From assembly GCF_003018255.1 (NCBI RefSeq), contig NZ_CP027440.1: a stretch of 64,000 nt of DNA; one strand, 5' to 3'. Both the position numbers and the translations under genes were made by a program. Numbering within the stretch: position 1 is the first letter of the stretch; every line of letters starts with the position of its first letter. Below, in pieces: positions 3,258-23,999 of this stretch. The notes under the pieces were generated by a model. It was not told the DNA's origin. It searched no databases and saw only the letters and a program-made list of their open reading frames with translations. This stretch comes from Escherichia coli. Lineage in GTDB: Bacteria; Pseudomonadota; Gammaproteobacteria; Enterobacterales; Enterobacteriaceae.

Positions 3258-4187
3258 ATGCCGATTCGTGTGCCGGACGAGCTACCCGCCGTCAATTTCT
3301 TGCGTGAAGAAAACGTCTTTGTGATGACAACTTCTCGTGCGTCTGGTCAGGAAATTCGTCCGCTAAAGGTGCTTATCCTTAACCTGATGCCGAAGAAGAT
3401 CGAAACTGAAAATCAGTTTCTGCGCCTGCTTTCAAACTCACCTTTGCAGGTCGATATTCAGCTGTTGCGCATCGATTCCCGTGAATCGCGCAACACGCCC
3501 GCAGAGCATCTGAATAACTTCTACTGTAACTTTGAAGATATTCAGGAACAAAACTTTGATGGTCTGATAGTTACCGGCGCGCCGCTGGGCCTGGTGGAGT
3601 TTAATGATGTTGCTTACTGGCCGCAGATCAAACAGGTGCTGGAGTGGTCGAAAGATCACGTCACCTCGACGCTGTTTGTCTGTTGGGCGGTCCAGGCCGC
3701 GCTCAATATCCTCTACGGCATTCCTAAGCAAACCCGCACCGACAAACTCTCTGGCGTTTACGAGCATCATATTCTCCATCCTCATGCGCTTCTGACGCGT
3801 GGCTTTGATGATTCATTCCTGGCACCACATTCGCGCTATGCTGACTTTCCGGCAGCGTTGATTCGTGATTATACCGATCTGGAAATTCTGGCGGAGACAG
3901 AAGAAGGGGATGCCTATCTGTTTGCCAGCAAAGATAAGCGAATTGCCTTTGTGACGGGCCATCCCGAATATGATGCGCAAACGCTGGCGCAGGAATTTTT
4001 CCGCGATGTGGAAGCCGGACTAGACCCGGATGTACCGTATAACTATTTCCCGCATAATGATCCGCAAAATACACCGCGAGCGAGCTGGCGTAGTCACGGT
4101 AATTTGCTGTTTACCAACTGGCTCAACTATTACGTCTACCAGATCACGCCATACGATCTACGGCACATGAACCCAACGCTGGATTAA
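3258..4187 (+). CDS. metA: Homoserine O-succinyltransferase
   Basis: 309-aa ORF starting [47 protein letters not shown], recognised as E. coli MetA. Confidence 0.96.
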
Positions 4188-6086: not shown

Positions 6087-7391
6087 ATGAAAACCCGTAC
6101 ACAACAAATTGAAGAATTACAGAAAGAGTGGACTCAACCGCGTTGGGAAGGCATTACTCGCCCGTACAGCGCGGAAGATGTGGTGAAATTACGCGGTTCA
6201 GTCAATCCGGAATGCACCCTGGCGCAACTGGGCGCGGCGAAAATGTGGCGTCTGCTGCACGGCGAGTCGAAAAAAGGCTACATCAACAGCCTCGGTGCAC
6301 TGACTGGCGGTCAGGCGCTGCAACAGGCGAAAGCGGGTATTGAAGCAGTCTATCTGTCGGGATGGCAGGTAGCGGCGGACGCTAACCTGGCGGCCAGCAT
6401 GTATCCGGATCAGTCGCTCTATCCGGCAAACTCGGTGCCAGCGGTGGTGGAGCGGATCAACAATACTTTCCGCCGTGCGGATCAGATCCAATGGTCCGCG
6501 GGCATTGAGCCGGGCGATCCGCGCTATGTCGATTACTTCCTGCCGATCGTCGCCGATGCGGAGGCCGGTTTTGGCGGTGTACTGAATGCCTTTGAACTGA
6601 TGAAAGCGATGATTGAAGCCGGTGCAGCGGCAGTTCACTTCGAAGATCAGCTGGCATCAGTGAAGAAATGTGGTCACATGGGCGGCAAAGTTTTGGTGCC
6701 AACTCAGGAAGCTATTCAGAAACTGGTCGCGGCGCGTCTGGCAGCTGATGTGACGGGCGTTCCAACCCTGCTGGTTGCTCGTACCGATGCCGATGCGGCG
6801 GATCTGATTACCTCCGATTGCGACCCATATGACAGCGAATTTATTACTGGCGAGCGTACCAGTGAAGGCTTCTTCCGTACTCATGCGGGTATTGAGCAAG
6901 CGATCAGCCGTGGCCTGGCGTATGCGCCATATGCTGACCTGGTCTGGTGTGAAACCTCCACGCCGGACCTGGAACTGGCGCGTCGCTTTGCACAAGCCAT
7001 CCACGCGAAATATCCGGGCAAACTGCTGGCTTATAACTGCTCGCCGTCGTTCAACTGGCAGAAAAACCTCGACGACAAAACTATTGCCAGCTTCCAGCAG
7101 CAGCTGTCGGATATGGGCTACAAGTTCCAGTTCATCACCCTGGCAGGTATCCACAGCATGTGGTTCAACATGTTTGACCTGGCAAACGCCTATGCCCAGG
7201 GCGAGGGTATGAAGCACTATGTTGAGAAAGTGCAGCAGCCGGAATTTGCCGCCGCGAAAGATGGCTATACCTTCGTATCTCACCAACAGGAAGTGGGTAC
7301 AGGTTACTTCGATAAAGTGACGACCATTATTCAGGGCGGCACGTCGTCGGTTACCGCACTGACTGGCTCCACCGAAGAATCGCAGTTCTAA
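6087..7391 (+). CDS. aceA: Isocitrate lyase
   Basis: ORF-track 6072..7391; start moved to [22 protein letters not shown] (434 aa). Contains the isocitrate lyase signature KKCGHMGGK. Confidence 0.96.
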
Positions 7392-18346: not shown

Positions 18347-19171
18347 TCAGGACAGGAAGCCCAGCACATTGCCGATAATCCCTAAGCCAAACAGGGCGAA
18401 AATCAGCCATACCGGGTTAATTTTTTTGTTGAGCAGACGAACCATCAGTAGCGTCAGACCGAGCGCCAGCAAACCAGGGCAAAGTTGGTCGAGAATGTTC
18501 TGCACGGTCATGGTGACGGTGGAGCCATCGGCGGCATGCGTTTGTGAAACCACCAACGGTACGTTGATTGACGTCCATTTGGTGACCAGCACGCCCATCA
18601 CAAACAGTCCGAGAATCGACGCGCCTTCGGTGAGTTTTTGCAGCACATTCCCGCCCATATCGCTGACGATATTCACCCCTTTGCGAAAGCCGAGCTGTAG
18701 GCCATACCACTTCATCGCCAGACGCACCGCGTTGAAAATAAAGAAGAACAGCAGGGGGCCGAGAATGTTGCCCGAAAGTGCCAGAGATGCGCCGAGCGCG
18801 GCGGTAATCGGGCGCAGCGTTCCCCAGACCAGTGGATCGCCAACCCCTGCCAACGGTCCCATCAGGCCGACTTTGATGCCGTTAATGGTACCGTCATCAA
18901 TTTCCGCGCCGTTGGCCCGCGCCTCTTCCATGGCGGCAGTGACGCCGATGACCGGGCCACATACGGCTGGCGTGGTATTGAAGAACACCAGGTGTCGCCT
19001 GAGCGCCGCAACCTGATCCTCTTTTAATGGGTAAAGTCGCTTGATGGCGGGGATCATGTCGTAGCAAAAACCCAGCCCATGAATACGTTCAAAGTTAAAG
19101 GACGCCTGTTGCAGGTTGGAGCGCAGAAACATGTTCACCAGATCGCTGCGTGTAATTTTTCTCTGTTCCAT
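18347..19171 (-). CDS. sorM: PTS sorbose-specific EIID component
   Basis: Mannose-family IID membrane protein. Start taken at MEQRKITRSDLV (GGAG 5 nt upstream); the ORF-track start at 19201 would overlap sorA by 20 nt and lacks a Shine-Dalgarno. Confidence 0.8.
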   Translation of the reverse strand: MEQRKITRSDLVNMFLRSNLQQASFNFERIHGLGFCYDMIPAIKRLYPLKEDQVAALRRHLVFFNTTPAVCGPVIGVTAAMEEARANGAEIDDGTINGIKVGLMGPLAGVGDPLVWGTLRPITAALGASLALSGNILGPLLFFFIFNAVRLAMKWYGLQLGFRKGVNIVSDMGGNVLQKLTEGASILGLFVMGVLVTKWTSINVPLVVSQTHAADGSTVTMTVQNILDQLCPGLLALGLTLLMVRLLNKKINPVWLIFALFGLGIIGNVLGFLS

Positions 19172-19181
19172 GATGGCTCCG

Positions 19182-19979
19182 TTAATTGTCAAGTTGGTCA
19201 AGGGCGGTGGAGGCGGTGGCCTGGAGTTGAGGTTCAGCTTTACGCCACTGTGGATTTAGCTGGATGTAGACCAGGGCCATGATCACGCCGACGCCACCGA
19301 ACGCCAGCAGACTGAGATCGAGGTAGCCACCTGCGAGGAAACCGAGGAAAAAGAAAGGCATCAAATATTTCACGCCCATCATGCGAAGCACCATGGCGTA
19401 ACCGACCACCACGATAAAACCGCCAGCAATCTGCAGTCCACGGGTCACAAATTCGGGAATGGCGCTCAGCATATTGCTCACCATATCAGCGCTGACGAAC
19501 AGCGAGACAATCAGTGCCGGAATAGCAACGCGCAGTGCCTGCACGCCAAGCGCGGAGACATGCAGAATATCGAGAGTGCGAAACCGTGCTTCTTCCGCTG
19601 CTTTATCCGCCGCGTGCTGGAACACTACGGTGATGGTACGGGCAAACACCGTCAGCACCTGGCCTGCCGCAGCCACAGGCAACGCGATGGCGATTCCGGT
19701 GGCGATGCTTTGCTGACCAACGATAACCAGAATGGCGGAGATTATGCTGGCGAGTGCAGAATCCGGAGATTGCGCCGCGCCGACGTTCATCCAGCCGAGA
19801 GCTATCAATTCCAGCGTACCACCGAGCATAATTCCGGTTTTTAAATCACCGAGAATTAAACCAATCACCGTACAGGCAATTAACGGACGATGAGTCTGAA
19901 ATTCATCCAGCACGCTGCCCATTCCGGCAATACAGGAAAAAAGAAATATAGCAATGATTTGTAGGGTACTTATTTCCAT
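19182..19979 (-). CDS. sorA: PTS sorbose-specific EIIC component
   Basis: 265-aa polytopic membrane protein of the mannose-family IIC type, between the IIB and IID genes. Confidence 0.88.
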   Translation of the reverse strand: MEISTLQIIAIFLFSCIAGMGSVLDEFQTHRPLIACTVIGLILGDLKTGIMLGGTLELIALGWMNVGAAQSPDSALASIISAILVIVGQQSIATGIAIALPVAAAGQVLTVFARTITVVFQHAADKAAEEARFRTLDILHVSALGVQALRVAIPALIVSLFVSADMVSNMLSAIPEFVTRGLQIAGGFIVVVGYAMVLRMMGVKYLMPFFFLGFLAGGYLDLSLLAFGGVGVIMALVYIQLNPQWRKAEPQLQATASTALDQLDN

Positions 19980-21831: not shown

Positions 21832-22779
21832 TTATTTCAGTAATAGTTCAGCTGTGCTGCTATTCGTTACCAGACAATTAATATATTTTCCACGCAGTGT
21901 ACCAATAATTCCGCTGTATTTTTCTTCACTCATGGCAATGCCAATGGAATACCGCGCCTGCTTTAATTTATTCATTTCGATAGAGAGTGTTTTTTCGCTC
22001 ATATTCGTTTCAACCATTGCGCCGTGAATATCAAAAAAGCGCGAGCAAATATCGCCAGCAACCTGGCGGGCATTCAGGTCGTCACTCTCTTCACCACCAT
22101 AAAACGCATGCCAGTTAGCGCCGTCGCGAATGGCCGGTGAGCCAATTCCCACCAGGGCGACATCCAGATTATCCCAGTAGGCAGAGATGGTTTTAAAGTG
22201 CTGAGACTGCATGATCCCATTACGAATTAATGGGTTATCCAGCAGAGCCGGAAAATCCGCGAGATGCGATTCCCCTTTCAGCTTCGCTGCCGCGCTGTAG
22301 GTTAATGTGTTTACGTGATAGCGGCTTTCGAGTTTACCGGACGGTCCGCCAATAATTGGTACGCAGATTAACTGCCGCGATTGCCCCGCCTGCGGCAAGT
22401 TTTCAACCAGTGCGCTCACCGCGCGACCCCAGGAAAAACCGACAATATCGCCAGGCTCCAGCAAGCGATCCAGCAGTTGCGCGCCGTGTAACCCCATCAT
22501 CGCCAGTTGAGTCTCTTCATCCTCATCATTTCCCGACACCACCACAACGTCTTTCAGGCCAAACTTTTGCTTCAGTTGCTGCTCCAGCCAGAGATTTTCG
22601 TTGTAGTCATAGTTGATGGCGATGGTGACAATTCCCTGATCGCGGCCTCGTTTAAGCAAGCGGCTGATGGTGGTGCGGTAAATACCCAGTTCGCGCGCGA
22701 TTTGCGCCTGCGTCATATCCTGTTCGTAATAGAGTTGGGCAATCTTCACAATCAAACGGATATCGTCACTGTTTTCCAT
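21832..22779 (-). CDS. sorC: Sorbose operon transcriptional regulator (SorC/DeoR family)
   Basis: ORF-track 21832..22863 begins at a TTG; start moved to MENSDDIRLIVKIAQLYYEQDMTQAQIARELGIYRTTISR (315 aa), preceded by AGGAGG. N-terminal helix-turn-helix plus sugar-phosphate binding domain. Confidence 0.85.
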   Translation of the reverse strand: MENSDDIRLIVKIAQLYYEQDMTQAQIARELGIYRTTISRLLKRGRDQGIVTIAINYDYNENLWLEQQLKQKFGLKDVVVVSGNDEDEETQLAMMGLHGAQLLDRLLEPGDIVGFSWGRAVSALVENLPQAGQSRQLICVPIIGGPSGKLESRYHVNTLTYSAAAKLKGESHLADFPALLDNPLIRNGIMQSQHFKTISAYWDNLDVALVGIGSPAIRDGANWHAFYGGEESDDLNARQVAGDICSRFFDIHGAMVETNMSEKTLSIEMNKLKQARYSIGIAMSEEKYSGIIGTLRGKYINCLVTNSSTAELLLK

Positions 22780-23126
22780 TGCCGCCTCCTGGTTCTGCAC
22801 ATTTGTGCAAATACGCTTTCTCACCGCTTGATCTGATATAACCCCATCATGAGGGCCTTTCAAAGCGATTTTTCACTCTTTGCATGGGGAGAAATAGCGC
22901 TTTCTCTTGCACATTTGTTTCTCTGCGTAGTAGTCATCAGCACAGGTGTGCAGCGATTCGTAATATGTTGATTATCCTTATTTTGCCAGGCAAATTTGCA
23001 TCGTACTTCCGGAGACACTTTTGTGATAAAAGGCGTGGCAGATCACATTTAATTTCGACGTTGCCGCATAACCCTGTTTTTCCCCGCTAAGAGGTACGGT
23101 ATATTCCGCGTTTTACAGGAGAATTT

Positions 23127-23999
23127 ATGCTGCCCGACTCATCAGTCCGTTTAAATAAATACATCAGCGAAAGCGGAATTTGCTCACGCCGCGAAGCGGA
23201 TCGCTATATCGAGCAAGGCAATGTGTTCCTTAATGGCAAGCGAGCCACCATTGGCGATCAGGTGAAACCCGGCGACGTTGTGAAAGTAAATGGTCAGTTG
23301 ATTGAACCTCGGGAAGCCGAAGATTTGGTACTTATCGCCCTGAACAAGCCCGTCGGTATTGTCAGCACCACCGAAGATGGCGAGCGCGATAACATTGTCG
23401 ATTTCGTTAACCACAGCAAACGCGTATTCCCGATTGGCCGCCTGGATAAAGACTCCCAGGGGCTGATTTTCCTCACCAATCACGGCGATCTGGTGAATAA
23501 GATCCTCCGTGCGGGTAACGATCATGAGAAAGAGTATCTGGTGACGGTCGATAAACCGATTACCGATGAATTTATTCGTGGTATGGGGGCGGGGGTGCCA
23601 ATCCTCGGGACAGTGACTAAAAAGTGCAAAGTCAAAAAAGAAGCGCCATTTGTCTTCCGCATTACCCTGGTGCAGGGGCTGAACCGTCAGATCCGTCGCA
23701 TGTGCGAGCACTTTGGTTACGAAGTGAAAAAGCTGGAACGTACGCGCATTATGAACGTCAGTTTAAGCGGCATTCCGCTGGGGGAGTGGCGCGATTTAAC
23801 CGACGATGAGTTAATCGACCTCTTTAAGCTCATCGAAAATTCCTCTTCCGAGGCAAAACCTAAAGCGAAGGCCAAACCGAAAACGGTAGGCATCAAACGT
23901 CCAGTCGTTAAGATGGAAAAAACGGCGGAAAAAGGCGGTCGCCCGGCGTCCAACGGTAAGCGTTTTACCTCGCCGGGGCGCAAAAAGAAGGGGCGTTAA
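23127..23999 (+). CDS. rluF: 23S rRNA pseudouridine synthase F
   Basis: 290-aa ORF with N-terminal S4 domain, RluA/RsuA-type catalytic region and Lys-rich tail; recognised as RluF. Confidence 0.93.

What the first reader, a model, noticed from the sequence alone, without database searches (positions are those of the whole stretch)
22780..22920. Repeated motifs upstream of sorC: candidate SorC operator sites
The sorC 5' region contains two copies of a two-part motif in swapped order: tgcacatttg (22796-22805) then cgctttctc (22814-22822), and cgctttctc (22898-22906) then tgcacatttg (22908-22917). The first copy overlaps a near-palindrome, tgcacatttgtgcaaa. SorC in Klebsiella is reported to autoregulate and control the operon, so these are plausible operator half-sites; they have not, as far as I know, been mapped in E. 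coli.
Basis: inference. Interest (0 to 1): 0.35.

Follow-up and report, generated by a model that had tools for sequence, protein, structure and literature searches.

The report
Predicted SorC operators upstream of sorC
One of the two repeated motifs upstream of the sorbose regulator gene sorC is part of a deeply conserved palindromic site that is almost certainly where SorC binds; the other motif is a lineage-specific coincidence.

Summary
sorC is on the minus strand (ATG 22779), so they lie in its 5' region.

TGCACATTTG (really 11 nt) is real signal. Its two copies are the best-conserved stretches of the control region: 99% and 97% identity across 22 non-redundant Enterobacteriaceae sequences, against a 65% background.

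The functional unit is a 16-bp dyad, TTGCAC-N4-GTGCAA. There are three sites:
- O1 (22795-22810), a near-perfect dyad next to the ribosome-binding site.
- O2 (22907-22922), a half-site 112 bp upstream of O1.

A promoter-like block lies between O2 and O1. The O1-O3 spacing of 142-144 bp recurs in Brenneria, Yersinia and Orbus. The same dyad accompanies SorC-like regulators in Firmicutes and changes with their recognition helix. It has the geometry of the Bacillus subtilis DeoR operator.

CGCTTTCTC is not conserved (39% and 63%), and a 9-mer repeat arises in 23% of shuffles.

The verdict is predicted SorC operators. They probably act by cooperative or looped binding around the promoter, but this is untested. 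This is a new member of a known kind, of moderate interest.

The parts
22795..22810 (-). O1: near-perfect dyad TTGCAC-AAAT-GTGCAG (14-bp core TGCACAAATGTGCA, 22796-22809).
   Evidence: Identity is 0.99 across 22 non-redundant enterobacterial sequences. The core is exact in 26 of 27 enterobacterial loci. A dyad sits in the same place in Brenneria, Yersinia, Orbus and Oceanobacillus.
22907..22922 (-). O2: a half-site. The conserved part is CAAATGTGCAA (22907-22917) and the left half is degenerate (AGAAAC). Its centre is 112 bp from O1.
   Evidence: Identity is 0.97. The spacing is 112 bp in 25 of 28 sequences and 113 bp in a Serratia. In Kluyvera it is 101 bp, and the site there is a full dyad, TGCACAAACGTGCA.
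22938..22953 (-). Its centre is 143 bp from O1 and 31 bp from O2.
   Evidence: families D2 and I2; identity 0.75; GCAC and GTGC nearly invariant. A dyad lies 142-144 bp upstream of O1 in Brenneria, Yersinia mollaretii and Orbus as well.
22829..22843 (-). Invariant block GGTTATATCAGATCA. This is the inferred -10 region (TATATC or TTATAT) and start-site region of the sor promoter. It contains a GATC.
   Evidence: Identity is 0.96 and the block is conserved in Brenneria and Yersinia. It was not called by the consensus promoter scan. The promoter assignment is inference.
22858..22874 (-). Block GAAAAATCGCTTTGAAA. The inferred -35 is TTGAAA (22858-22863), 17 bp before TATATC, preceded by an A-rich tract.
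   Evidence: The TT of TTG is invariant. The aligned element is TTGACA in Brenneria and TTGACT in Yersinia. Inference.
22785..22790 (-). Shine-Dalgarno sequence AGGAGG of sorC. The start codon is at 22777-22779.
   Evidence: In most other genera the Shine-Dalgarno sequence (CAGGAG) overlaps the end of O1.
22814..22822 (+). Probably not functional.
   Evidence: Identity is 0.39, the 7th percentile of sliding windows. It differs in E. coli E69, E. coli SCPM and Pseudocitrobacter faecalis.
22898..22906 (+). Distal copy of motif 2 (CGCTTTCTC). It is part of a lineage-specific dyad, GAGAAA-N6-TTTCTC (22889-22906). Probably not functional.
   Evidence: Identity is 0.63, the 43rd percentile. It is not conserved outside the E. 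coli / Pseudocitrobacter clade.
22961..22973 (-). Match to the IHF (integration host factor) core consensus, AATCAACATATTA (WATCAA-N4-TTR), 22 nt upstream of O3.
   Evidence: Present in 25 of 28 sequences at the same offset. The specified positions are conserved and the N4 varies freely. It is also present in Yersinia. An E. coli SNP at 22965 falls in the N4. Binding is untested.
23015..23026 (-). Candidate weak fourth site (O4): palindrome TCAC-AAAA-GTGT, which is ACACAAAAGTGT in most genera and shares the CAC-N4-GTG core.
   Evidence: Conserved across Enterobacteriaceae and related to O1 by repeat family D1. A similar ACACATATGTGT sits next to the Shine-Dalgarno sequence of a Bacillus SorC-like gene. 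Tentative.
23029..23050 (-). CRP-like 22-mer AAATGTGATCTGCCACGCCTTT. The left half is perfect; the right half is weak in E. coli and better (ACACC) in other genera.
   Evidence: Conserved at about 243 bp from O1 in most Enterobacteriaceae and in Yersinia. The match to the CRP consensus is by eye, from my own knowledge of that consensus.

Best explanation
The TGCACATTTG repeats belong to a set of SorC-binding sites. Each site is a version of the 16-bp dyad TTGCAC-N4-GTGCAA, read by a dimer of SorC's N-terminal helix-turn-helix domains.

O1 is a near-perfect dyad. It lies between a promoter-like block (TTGAAA, 17 bp, TATATC) and the sorC ribosome-binding site, at about +20 to +33 if transcription starts near 22828. 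O2 (a half-site) and O3 (a near-dyad) lie 112 and 143 bp upstream, on the other side of that promoter.

SorC is a tetramer built as a dimer of dimers. The most likely mechanism is that, without sorbose, one tetramer holds O1 and O3 (or O2) together. That loops out the promoter and blocks initiation or elongation. Inducer would weaken the dimer-dimer contacts, as shown for the relative CggR. The loop would open and SorC left at O2/O3 could activate, which fits the reported dual repressor/activator role.

Shown here: the motifs, their conservation, the fixed spacing, and co-occurrence and co-variation with the regulator.

Inferred: binding by SorC, the position of the promoter, looping, and the switch to activation.

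The CGCTTTCTC repeat plays no part.
For: (1) Conservation. In an alignment of 28 enterobacterial sor upstream regions, O1 and the O2 half-site are the most conserved stretches (0.99 and 0.97 against a 0.65 background). O3 keeps GCAC-N4-GTGC.

(2) Enrichment. TGCAC-N4-GTGCA with at most 1 mismatch occurs 39 times in the 260 bp upstream of 27 sorC genes (5.6 per kb). It occurs 6 times in the rest of those loci (0.034 per kb). In the 64-kb window the only other such match is an unrelated one at 6213.

(3) Spacing. O1-O2 is 112 bp in 25 of 28 sequences. Kluyvera has 101 bp through an 11-bp deletion, about one helical turn, and its O2 is a full dyad. O1-O3 is 143-144 bp in Enterobacteriaceae and 143, 144 and 142 bp in Brenneria, Yersinia and Orbus, whose operons lack sorD.

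(4) The motif follows the regulator, not the sorbose genes. Firmicute SorC-like regulators with the same helix (GIYRTTISR) sit next to rpiA-like and Gfo/Idh/MocA genes. They carry TGCACA(A/T)TTGTGC-type dyads plus a second site or half-site 19-20 bp away.

(5) Co-variation. A Planococcus relative with a DeoR-like helix (NRVTVSR) has TGAACATTTGTTCA instead.

(6) Geometry. The B. subtilis DeoR left half-operator, solved in complex with the protein, is TTGAAC-AAAA-TTTCAA. That is the same 6-4-6 layout with 12-13 of 16 bases shared. The DeoR arginines reported to contact bases (R34, R39) align with conserved SorC R35 and R40.

(7) Protein identity. Residues 1-60 of the window's SorC, which include the helix-turn-helix, are identical to crystallised K. 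pneumoniae SorC (2W48, a tetramer) except at one residue (full-length match).

(8) Family precedent. CggR's operator lies at +32 to +77, downstream of its transcription start.
Against: No binding or expression data exist for these sites.

The transcription start is not known. The consensus promoter scan found nothing, and both candidate -10 hexamers are imperfect.

The spacings of 31, 112 and 143 bp differ from the roughly two-turn tandem operators of DeoR and CggR, and from the roughly 70 Å separation of DNA-binding domains in the SorC crystal.

Spacings of 112 and 143 bp are not whole numbers of 10.5-bp turns. They fit only if the helical repeat in the cell is about 11 bp.

Fixed spacing could reflect a conserved layout rather than looping.

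O1 could also form a 7-bp RNA hairpin in the leader.

A reverse search with the Firmicute 14-mer found only chance matches.
Confidence: 0.75

Rival explanations
1. One reading: both motifs together form composite SorC half-sites, arranged in swapped order at the two positions.
For: Both motifs repeat exactly, and their joint occurrence is rare in shuffles (2 of 1000). The shared stretch extends to GAGAAAGCG(C)TATTT with one indel (read).
Against: CGCTTTCTC is at background conservation or below (0.39 and 0.63). It is absent outside the E. coli / Pseudocitrobacter clade. The proximal copy differs in other E. coli alleles (TTAAAAAGCG, GTAAAAAGCG). It has no counterpart in Brenneria, Yersinia, Orbus or the Firmicutes. 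Its orientation relative to the adjacent half-site differs between the two positions.
Confidence: 0.05
2. The dyads are bound by another transcription factor (for example a LacI/CytR-type or CRP-family protein) rather than SorC.
For: No direct binding data exist. TGCA-containing dyads resemble CytR octamers (noted). CRP-like and IHF-like elements sit in the same region.
Against: The dyad occurs next to SorC-type regulator genes in Enterobacterales, Orbales and several Firmicute genera, whatever the neighbouring genes are. It also changes with the regulator's recognition helix. A second factor shared by all these lineages and always sited there is unlikely. The spacing (N4) is not that of CRP (N6).
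Confidence: 0.08
3. O1 works at the RNA level, as a leader hairpin next to the Shine-Dalgarno sequence that affects mRNA stability or translation. The upstream copies would then be unrelated.
For: A 7-bp hairpin (centroid -7.9 kcal/mol) forms in the predicted leader, and in most genera its 3' arm abuts the Shine-Dalgarno sequence.
Against: The whole leader is not unusually stable (z = -0.99). There is no covariation, because stem and loop bases are all invariant. That pattern is what sequence-specific protein recognition predicts. The same motif recurs at O2 and O3 upstream of the promoter, and over promoters in Firmicutes. No Rfam family matches.
Confidence: 0.05
4. SorC binds the sites independently, with no loop. 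O1 would be a simple roadblock or occlusion operator, and O2/O3 a separate activation site or the operator of a second promoter.
For: O2 and O3 lie 31 bp apart (three helical turns) and could take one tetramer. The blocks TGCAAA (22995-23000) and GATAAT (22971-22976) could form a second promoter just upstream of O3. Family operators are normally contiguous.
Against: The O1-O3 distance of 142-144 bp is kept across families that share little other upstream sequence. The only natural indel between O2 and the promoter is 11 bp. O1 has no partner site about 20 bp away, whereas isolated half-operators bound DeoR poorly.
Confidence: 0.3

Closest known systems
Bacillus subtilis DeoR (SorC family, HTH subclass) operator of dra-nupC-pdp
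   Same: The regulator family and DNA-binding-domain type are the same. The left half-operator, TTGAAC-AAAA-TTTCAA, has the same 6-4-6 dyad layout and differs from TTGCAC-AAAT-GTGCAA at 3-4 of 16 positions. The base-contacting arginines are conserved. A tetramer needs two sites for stable binding.
   Different: The DeoR operator is one contiguous 39-bp unit over -60 to -21, with its two halves about two turns apart. The E. coli sor sites are 31, 112 and 143 bp apart and flank the promoter. DeoR is a pure repressor, whereas SorC is reported as both repressor and activator.
Bacillus subtilis CggR operator of the gapA operon
   Same: CggR is an autoregulated first gene of its operon. Its operator lies downstream of the start site (+32 to +77), as O1 is inferred to. 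Tetramer cooperativity is broken by the inducer.
   Different: CggR has a winged-helix DNA-binding domain and a different motif (CGGGAC-N6-TGTC direct repeats). Its operator is a contiguous 45 bp with no distant partner.
E. coli LsrR boxes in the lsrR-lsrA intergenic region
   Same: LsrR is an enterobacterial SorC-family tetramer with the same HTH subclass, and it has two boxes in a divergent control region alongside CRP sites.
   Different: The box sequences reported differ (AACAAT, AAGATTTAA), and LsrR's helix is LTRLKVSR. I did not compare the geometry in detail.
Looping operator pairs flanking a promoter (gal OE/OI about 113 bp apart; araO2-I; lac O1-O3)
   Same: Operators lie on both sides of the promoter at about 110-145 bp, the repressor is multimeric, and an architectural-protein site is nearby. 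This comparison rests on my own knowledge of those systems.
   Different: The repressor families differ. Looping at sor is inferred only from conserved spacing.

Membership tests
SorC-family (DeoR-subclass) operator | The cognate regulator has an N-terminal HTH plus a SorC sugar-binding domain (PF04198). | tested here: met
   The window protein matches K. pneumoniae SorC 2W48 over residues 1-315 (E = 5e-183) as well as DeoR and LsrR. PF04198 is present on its homologues. NCBIfam matches to the DeoR and LsrR models fall below their cut-offs, as expected for a paralogue.
SorC-family (DeoR-subclass) operator | Dyad-symmetric half-sites recognised by a dimer of DNA-binding domains, laid out as in the solved DeoR-DNA complex. 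| tested here: met
   O1 is TTGCAC-AAAT-GTGCAG and DeoR OL is TTGAAC-AAAA-TTTCAA. Both are 6-4-6.
SorC-family (DeoR-subclass) operator | Two half-operators about two helical turns apart, occupied by one tetramer. | tested here: not met
   In the window the centre-to-centre distances are 31, 112 and 143 bp, and O1 has no partner 19-22 bp away (read). The feature is met in the Firmicute relatives, at 19-20 bp.
SorC-family (DeoR-subclass) operator | The sites lie in the control region of the regulated, autoregulated operon. | tested here: met
   All sites lie within 180 bp upstream of sorC, the first gene of the sorC / SDR oxidoreductase / PTS IIA-IID / sorE cluster.
SorC-family (DeoR-subclass) operator | Demonstrated binding of the regulator, released or altered by the effector. 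| not testable with these tools
   This needs gel shifts or footprinting. No published mapping was found. A 2010 paper states that operators in the family were then known only for DeoR and CggR.
DNA-looping operator pair | At least two operators flank the promoter, with spacing constrained to the helical phase. | tested here: inconclusive
   The spacing is fixed (112 bp; 142-144 bp), and the single natural indel is 11 bp. There is only one such case, and the promoter position is inferred.
IHF binding site | Core WATCAA-N4-TTR with an upstream A/T-rich tract. | tested here: met
   AATCAACATATTA at 22961-22973, preceded by AAAATAAGGAT. It is conserved in 25 of 28 sequences with a variable N4. 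Binding is not testable here.

The most novel reading that the evidence does not exclude
SorC, unlike its characterised relatives that sit on one contiguous 40-45-bp operator, assembles a long-range complex. A tetramer would bridge O1 (downstream of the promoter) and O3/O2 (142-144 and 112 bp upstream), helped by a conserved IHF-type bend and perhaps a fourth weak site and CRP further upstream. Opening of this loop by sorbose would convert the same protein from repressor to activator.
Probability: 0.3. Interest if true: 0.55.

Novelty: new member of a known kind. Interest (0 to 1): 0.4.

Why it matters
SorC gave its name to a large family of sugar-responsive regulators, and its crystal structure has been known since 2009. 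In the literature I could search, however, its DNA target has never been defined. The family's mechanism rests on DeoR, CggR and LsrR.

A concrete 16-bp consensus, three mapped candidate sites and a conserved 143-bp spacing make the old question directly testable: how can one protein both repress and activate the sor operon? A few gel-shift, footprint and reporter experiments would answer it.

The sor operon is also a marker and fitness factor of high-risk E. coli lineages. Its control region is therefore of practical interest.

If the sites behave as ordinary operators, this is a routine annotation gain.

Tried and rejected
- **Consensus promoter and terminator scan of 22700-23200:** nothing found. 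The promoter is inferred from conservation only.
- **Rfam search of the region:** no match.
- **Antisense 68-aa ORF (22884-23090) as the reason for conservation:** rejected. The frame is broken at different places in other genera.
- **RNA hairpin at O1:** it can form, but the leader is not unusually stable, and the idea does not explain O2 and O3.
- **Reverse test:** None had a SorC-family gene nearby. This is uninformative, because chance 14-mers dominate so large a collection.
- **Literature searches** for a mapped SorC operator, for the motif itself, or for a RegPrecise entry: nothing found. The primary Klebsiella papers (Wöhrl 1990; de Sanctis 2009) are not held.
rejected by eye. GTGA is not conserved and the right half does not match.
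- **Partner site about 20 bp from O1:** none found.
- **Within-E. coli SNPs (3 alleles):** none fall in O1-O3, but there are too few to be informative.
- **First protein search:** it listed only homologues of 70% identity or more, so it added no new lineages.

Full report
**Observation.** The region was read on both strands. sorC runs on the minus strand from 22779 to 21832, with a Shine-Dalgarno sequence (AGGAGG) at 22785-22790. The divergent gene rluF starts at 23127.

TGCACATTTG lies at 22796-22805 and 22908-22917, and the exact repeat is 11 nt. CGCTTTCTC lies at 22814-22822 and 22898-22906. The proximal copy of the first motif sits in the perfect inverted repeat TGCACA-TT-TGTGCA (22796-22809).

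I tested chance with 1000 dinucleotide-preserving shuffles of the 347-bp intergenic region. A repeat of at least 11 nt appeared in 16 shuffles, one of at least 9 nt in 226, and both together in 2. The 11-mer stands out; the 9-mer alone does not.

**Context.** The downstream genes are an SDR sorbitol-6-phosphate dehydrogenase, PTS IIA, IIB, IIC and IID components of the mannose/sorbose type, and sorE. This is the sor operon.

- The locus is present in 2863 of 5426 complete E. coli genomes.
- Strains without sor share homology only from about 23092 onwards, so the whole control region belongs to the sor segment.
- RefSeq annotates no regulatory feature in the intergenic region.
- Residues 1-60 of the window's SorC differ from crystallised K. 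pneumoniae SorC (2W48) at a single residue (the full-length match is).

**Phylogenetic footprint.** A scan of one genome per species returned 27 enterobacterial sorC loci. These came from Escherichia, Pseudocitrobacter, Citrobacter, Klebsiella, Raoultella, Mangrovibacter, Cedecea, Enterobacter, Pantoea, a Serratia, Entomohabitans and Kluyvera. It also returned more distant homologues.

I aligned about 230 nt upstream of each enterobacterial gene and scored identity to the window over 22 sequences that are less than 90% alike:

| Feature | Identity |
|---|---|
| O1 dyad | 0.99 |
| Distal TGCACATTTG copy | 0.97 |
| Third dyad (O3) | 0.75 (GCAC and GTGC arms nearly invariant) |
| GGTTATATCAGATCA, 22829-22843 | 0.96 |
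| Whole region (background) | 0.65 |
| CGCTTTCTC, proximal copy | 0.39 (7th percentile of sliding windows) |
| CGCTTTCTC, distal copy | 0.63 (43rd percentile) |

The proximal CGCTTTCTC copy already differs in two other E. coli alleles and in Pseudocitrobacter faecalis. The second motif is therefore a lineage-specific coincidence, and the first is under strong constraint.

**The functional unit.** In gene orientation the sites read as follows:

| Site | Coordinates | Sequence |
|---|---|---|
| O1 | 22810→22795 | TTGCAC-AAAT-GTGCAG |
| O2 | 22922→22907 | AGAAAC-AAAT-GTGCAA (only the right half and the spacer are conserved) |
| O3 | 22953→22938 | CTGCAC-ACCT-GTGCTG |

The consensus is a 16-bp dyad, TTGCAC-N4-GTGCAA.

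- In Kluyvera, O2 is a perfect dyad (TTGCACAAACGTGCAA) and O3 shrinks to GTGCC. This suggests that O2 and O3 share one job.
- TGCAC-N4-GTGCA with at most 1 mismatch occurs 39 times in the 260 bp upstream of the 27 genes. It occurs 6 times in the remaining 175 kb or so of those loci, a roughly 160-fold enrichment.
- In the 64-kb window it occurs only at O1, at O3 and at one unrelated place.

**Spacing.** O1-O2 is 112 bp in 25 of 28 sequences and 113 bp in the Serratia. It is 101 bp in both Kluyvera, because of an 11-bp deletion between O2 and the -35-like block. That deletion is about one helical turn. O1-O3 is 143-144 bp wherever O3 is recognisable. O2-O3 is 31 bp (30 bp in Kluyvera).

**The motif follows the regulator.**

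- *Firmicute homologues with the same helix.* Three homologues of 43-48% identity carry the same recognition helix (LGIYRTTISRmLK). They are in Terrilactibacillus, Pseudalkalibacillus and Paenibacillus. Their neighbours are not sorbose genes but an rpiA-like gene and a Gfo/Idh/MocA oxidoreductase.
  - All three have the dyad upstream: TTGCACAATTGTGC, TTGCACAATTGTAC-7-TGTACATTTGTGCAA, and TGCACAATTGTGC.
  - Each has a second site or half-site 19-20 bp away.
  - None has the dyad in the other 6.7 kb or so of its locus.
- *Further loci from a second protein search and contig look-ups.*
  - Paenibacillus polymyxa, a Bacillus and Halobacillus show the same arrangement. In P. polymyxa the two sites flank a TATAAT.
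  - Brenneria, Yersinia mollaretii and Orbus have sorC-like genes followed by PTS IIA-IID genes and a dehydrogenase, without sorD. Each has a dyad next to the Shine-Dalgarno sequence and another 143, 144 and 142 bp upstream. They also keep a recognisable TTATATCA-type block. The aligned -35 elements are TTGACA and TTGACT in the first two.
  - Oceanobacillus has a true sorC / SDR / PTS IIA / IIB / IIC operon and the helix NRSTISR. It carries TGAACAATTGTGCAGGAGG abutting its Shine-Dalgarno sequence. It also has a perfect TGCACATTTGTGCA 40 nt before the SDR gene.
  - Planococcus has the DeoR-like helix NRVTVSR. It has GTACATTTGTAC and TGAACATTTGTTCA 20 bp apart.

The motif therefore travels with the regulator across two phyla and shifts with its recognition helix. 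That is the pattern expected of a cognate operator.

**Comparison with solved relatives.** The B. subtilis DeoR left half-operator, crystallised with the protein, is ATTGAACAAAATTTCAAT, that is TTGAAC-AAAA-TTTCAA (PMC11229326). This is the same 6-4-6 layout as the SorC dyad, with 12-13 of 16 bases shared.

- DeoR's base-contacting R34 and R39 align with SorC R35 and R40. The helices are ISRPTVSRLL and IYRTTISRLL.
- DeoR binds stably only when both halves of its 39-bp operator are present.
- CggR's 45-bp operator lies at +32 to +77.
- The inducer breaks CggR's dimer-dimer cooperativity (PMC11229326, PMC2943609).
- The SorC crystal tetramer presents its DNA-binding domains so as to fit two sites about two helical turns apart.
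- Chaix et al. (2010) note that operators in the family had then been identified only for DeoR and CggR.
- A 2025 study of the E. coli sor operon never mentions a promoter or operator. It cites only the 1990 Klebsiella work for SorC being an activator with sorbose and a repressor without it.

I found no paper containing the motif or a mapped SorC site. The primary Klebsiella papers are not in the library, and I could not check the RegPrecise database. An earlier prediction therefore cannot be excluded.

**Likely mechanism.** Between O2 and O1 lies a conserved promoter-like pair: TTGAAA (22863→22858), 17 bp, then TATATC (22840→22835).

- The consensus scan rejects it because the last -10 base is not T.
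- The TTG and the whole -10 block are conserved.
- The -35 is consensus-like in Brenneria and Yersinia.
- It is the only candidate retained in Kluyvera, whose intergenic region is short.

If transcription starts near 22828, the site centres fall at about +26.5 (O1), -86.5 (O2) and -117.5 (O3).

I infer that a SorC tetramer bridges O1 and O3 (or O2). This would enclose the promoter in a loop of 112-143 bp and repress it. Inducer would loosen the tetramer, and SorC remaining upstream could then stimulate an intrinsically weak promoter.

The supports for looping are:
- the conserved 142-144 bp distance across families that share little else upstream;
- the 11-bp natural deletion;
- the lack of any partner for O1 at about 20 bp.

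Against it:
- the spacings are whole numbers of turns only with a helical repeat of about 11 bp;
- no experiment exists;
- independent action of O1 (as a roadblock) and O2/O3 remains possible.

I put about 0.75-0.8 on "these are SorC sites" and about 0.3-0.4 on looping.

**Alternatives.**
- The composite two-part motif is rejected on conservation.
- Another transcription factor is unlikely, given the cross-phylum association with SorC-type genes.
- An RNA hairpin at O1 is possible (7 bp). It does not explain the invariant loop bases or the upstream copies, and no Rfam family matches.
- A conserved antisense ORF is excluded.

**Further conserved elements, not part of the finding.**
- An IHF-consensus core, AATCAACATATTA (22973→22961), lies a fixed 22 nt before O3 in 25 of 28 sequences, with the N4 free to vary.
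- The block TGCAAATTTGCC (23000→22989) is conserved.
- The palindrome ACACAAAAGTGT (TCAC...GTGT in E. coli, 23026→23015) shares the CAC-N4-GTG core.
- A CRP-like 22-mer, AAATGTGATCTGCCACGCCTTT (23050→23029), is kept about 243 bp from O1, also in Yersinia.

Together these suggest a control region of about 270 bp that builds a higher-order complex.

**Verdict.** This is a well-founded prediction of the operators of a known regulator. The site type is as expected for its family, but the long-range arrangement is unusual. It is a new member of a known kind and of moderate interest.

Noticed in passing
window 22961-22973 (minus strand): Match to the IHF core consensus, AATCAACATATTA. It is conserved in 25 of 28 enterobacterial sor upstream regions and in Yersinia, at a fixed 22 nt upstream of O3. 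The specified positions are invariant and the N4 is variable.
   Followed up: partly
window 23029-23050 (minus strand): CRP-like 22-mer AAATGTGATCTGCCACGCCTTT with a perfect left half. It is conserved about 243 bp from O1 in Enterobacteriaceae and in Yersinia mollaretii. It lies too far from the inferred promoter for classical CRP activation.
   Followed up: partly
window 23015-23026: Conserved palindrome ACAC/TCAC-AAAA-GTGT, directly next to the CRP-like site. It shares the CAC-N4-GTG core of the SorC dyad and may be a weak fourth site. A similar ACACATATGTGT sits by the Shine-Dalgarno sequence of a Bacillus SorC-like gene (L170).
   Followed up: partly
window 22989-23000 and 22968-22976 (minus strand): Conserved blocks TGCAAATTTGCC and GATAATCAA. 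The second reads CAGAATCAA in most genera. With 18-bp spacing they could be the -35 and -10 of a second promoter just upstream of O3. Both blocks are absent in Kluyvera.
   Followed up: no
window 22828-22834: A GATC (Dam methylation) site lies inside the invariant -10 / start-site block CAGATCA. It is conserved in most Enterobacteriaceae.
   Followed up: no
window 22889-22906: Lineage-specific dyad GAGAAA-TAGCGC-TTTCTC, which contains the distal CGCTTTCTC. It is not a dyad in E. coli E69 or in other genera.
   Followed up: yes
window ~23092: Strains without sor share homology only from about 23092 onwards, about 35 nt before the rluF start codon. The rluF promoter region in sor+ strains must therefore lie partly in sor-linked DNA. 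The sor-rluF junction sequence is shared by E. coli, Citrobacter, Klebsiella, Raoultella and Kluyvera.
   Followed up: partly
L166 (Brenneria) -301, L167 (Yersinia) -305, L021 (Entomohabitans) -304, relative to sorC start: An additional dyad (perfect in Brenneria and Yersinia, one mismatch in Entomohabitans) lies 268-281 bp upstream of O1 in these genera. It has no clear counterpart in E. coli.
   Followed up: no
L172 (Oceanobacillus) 3613-3626: A Firmicute operon with sorC-like, SDR, and PTS IIA, IIB and IIC genes has a perfect TGCACATTTGTGCA between the regulator gene and the SDR gene. There the structural genes appear to have their own operator.
   Followed up: no
L173 (Planococcus) upstream of 321; L172: The recognition helix and the half-site vary together. 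RTTISR goes with TGCACA, and DeoR-like RVTVSR goes with TGAACA and GTACA. RSTISR goes with a mixed TGAACA/TGTGCA dyad. The sample is small.
   Followed up: partly
L045 3149-3972 (E. coli E2865, identical to the window over 22700-23200): RefSeq marks the PTS IID gene (sorM) as frameshifted in that strain. In the window the corresponding ORF (18347-19201) is open for 284 codons.
   Followed up: no
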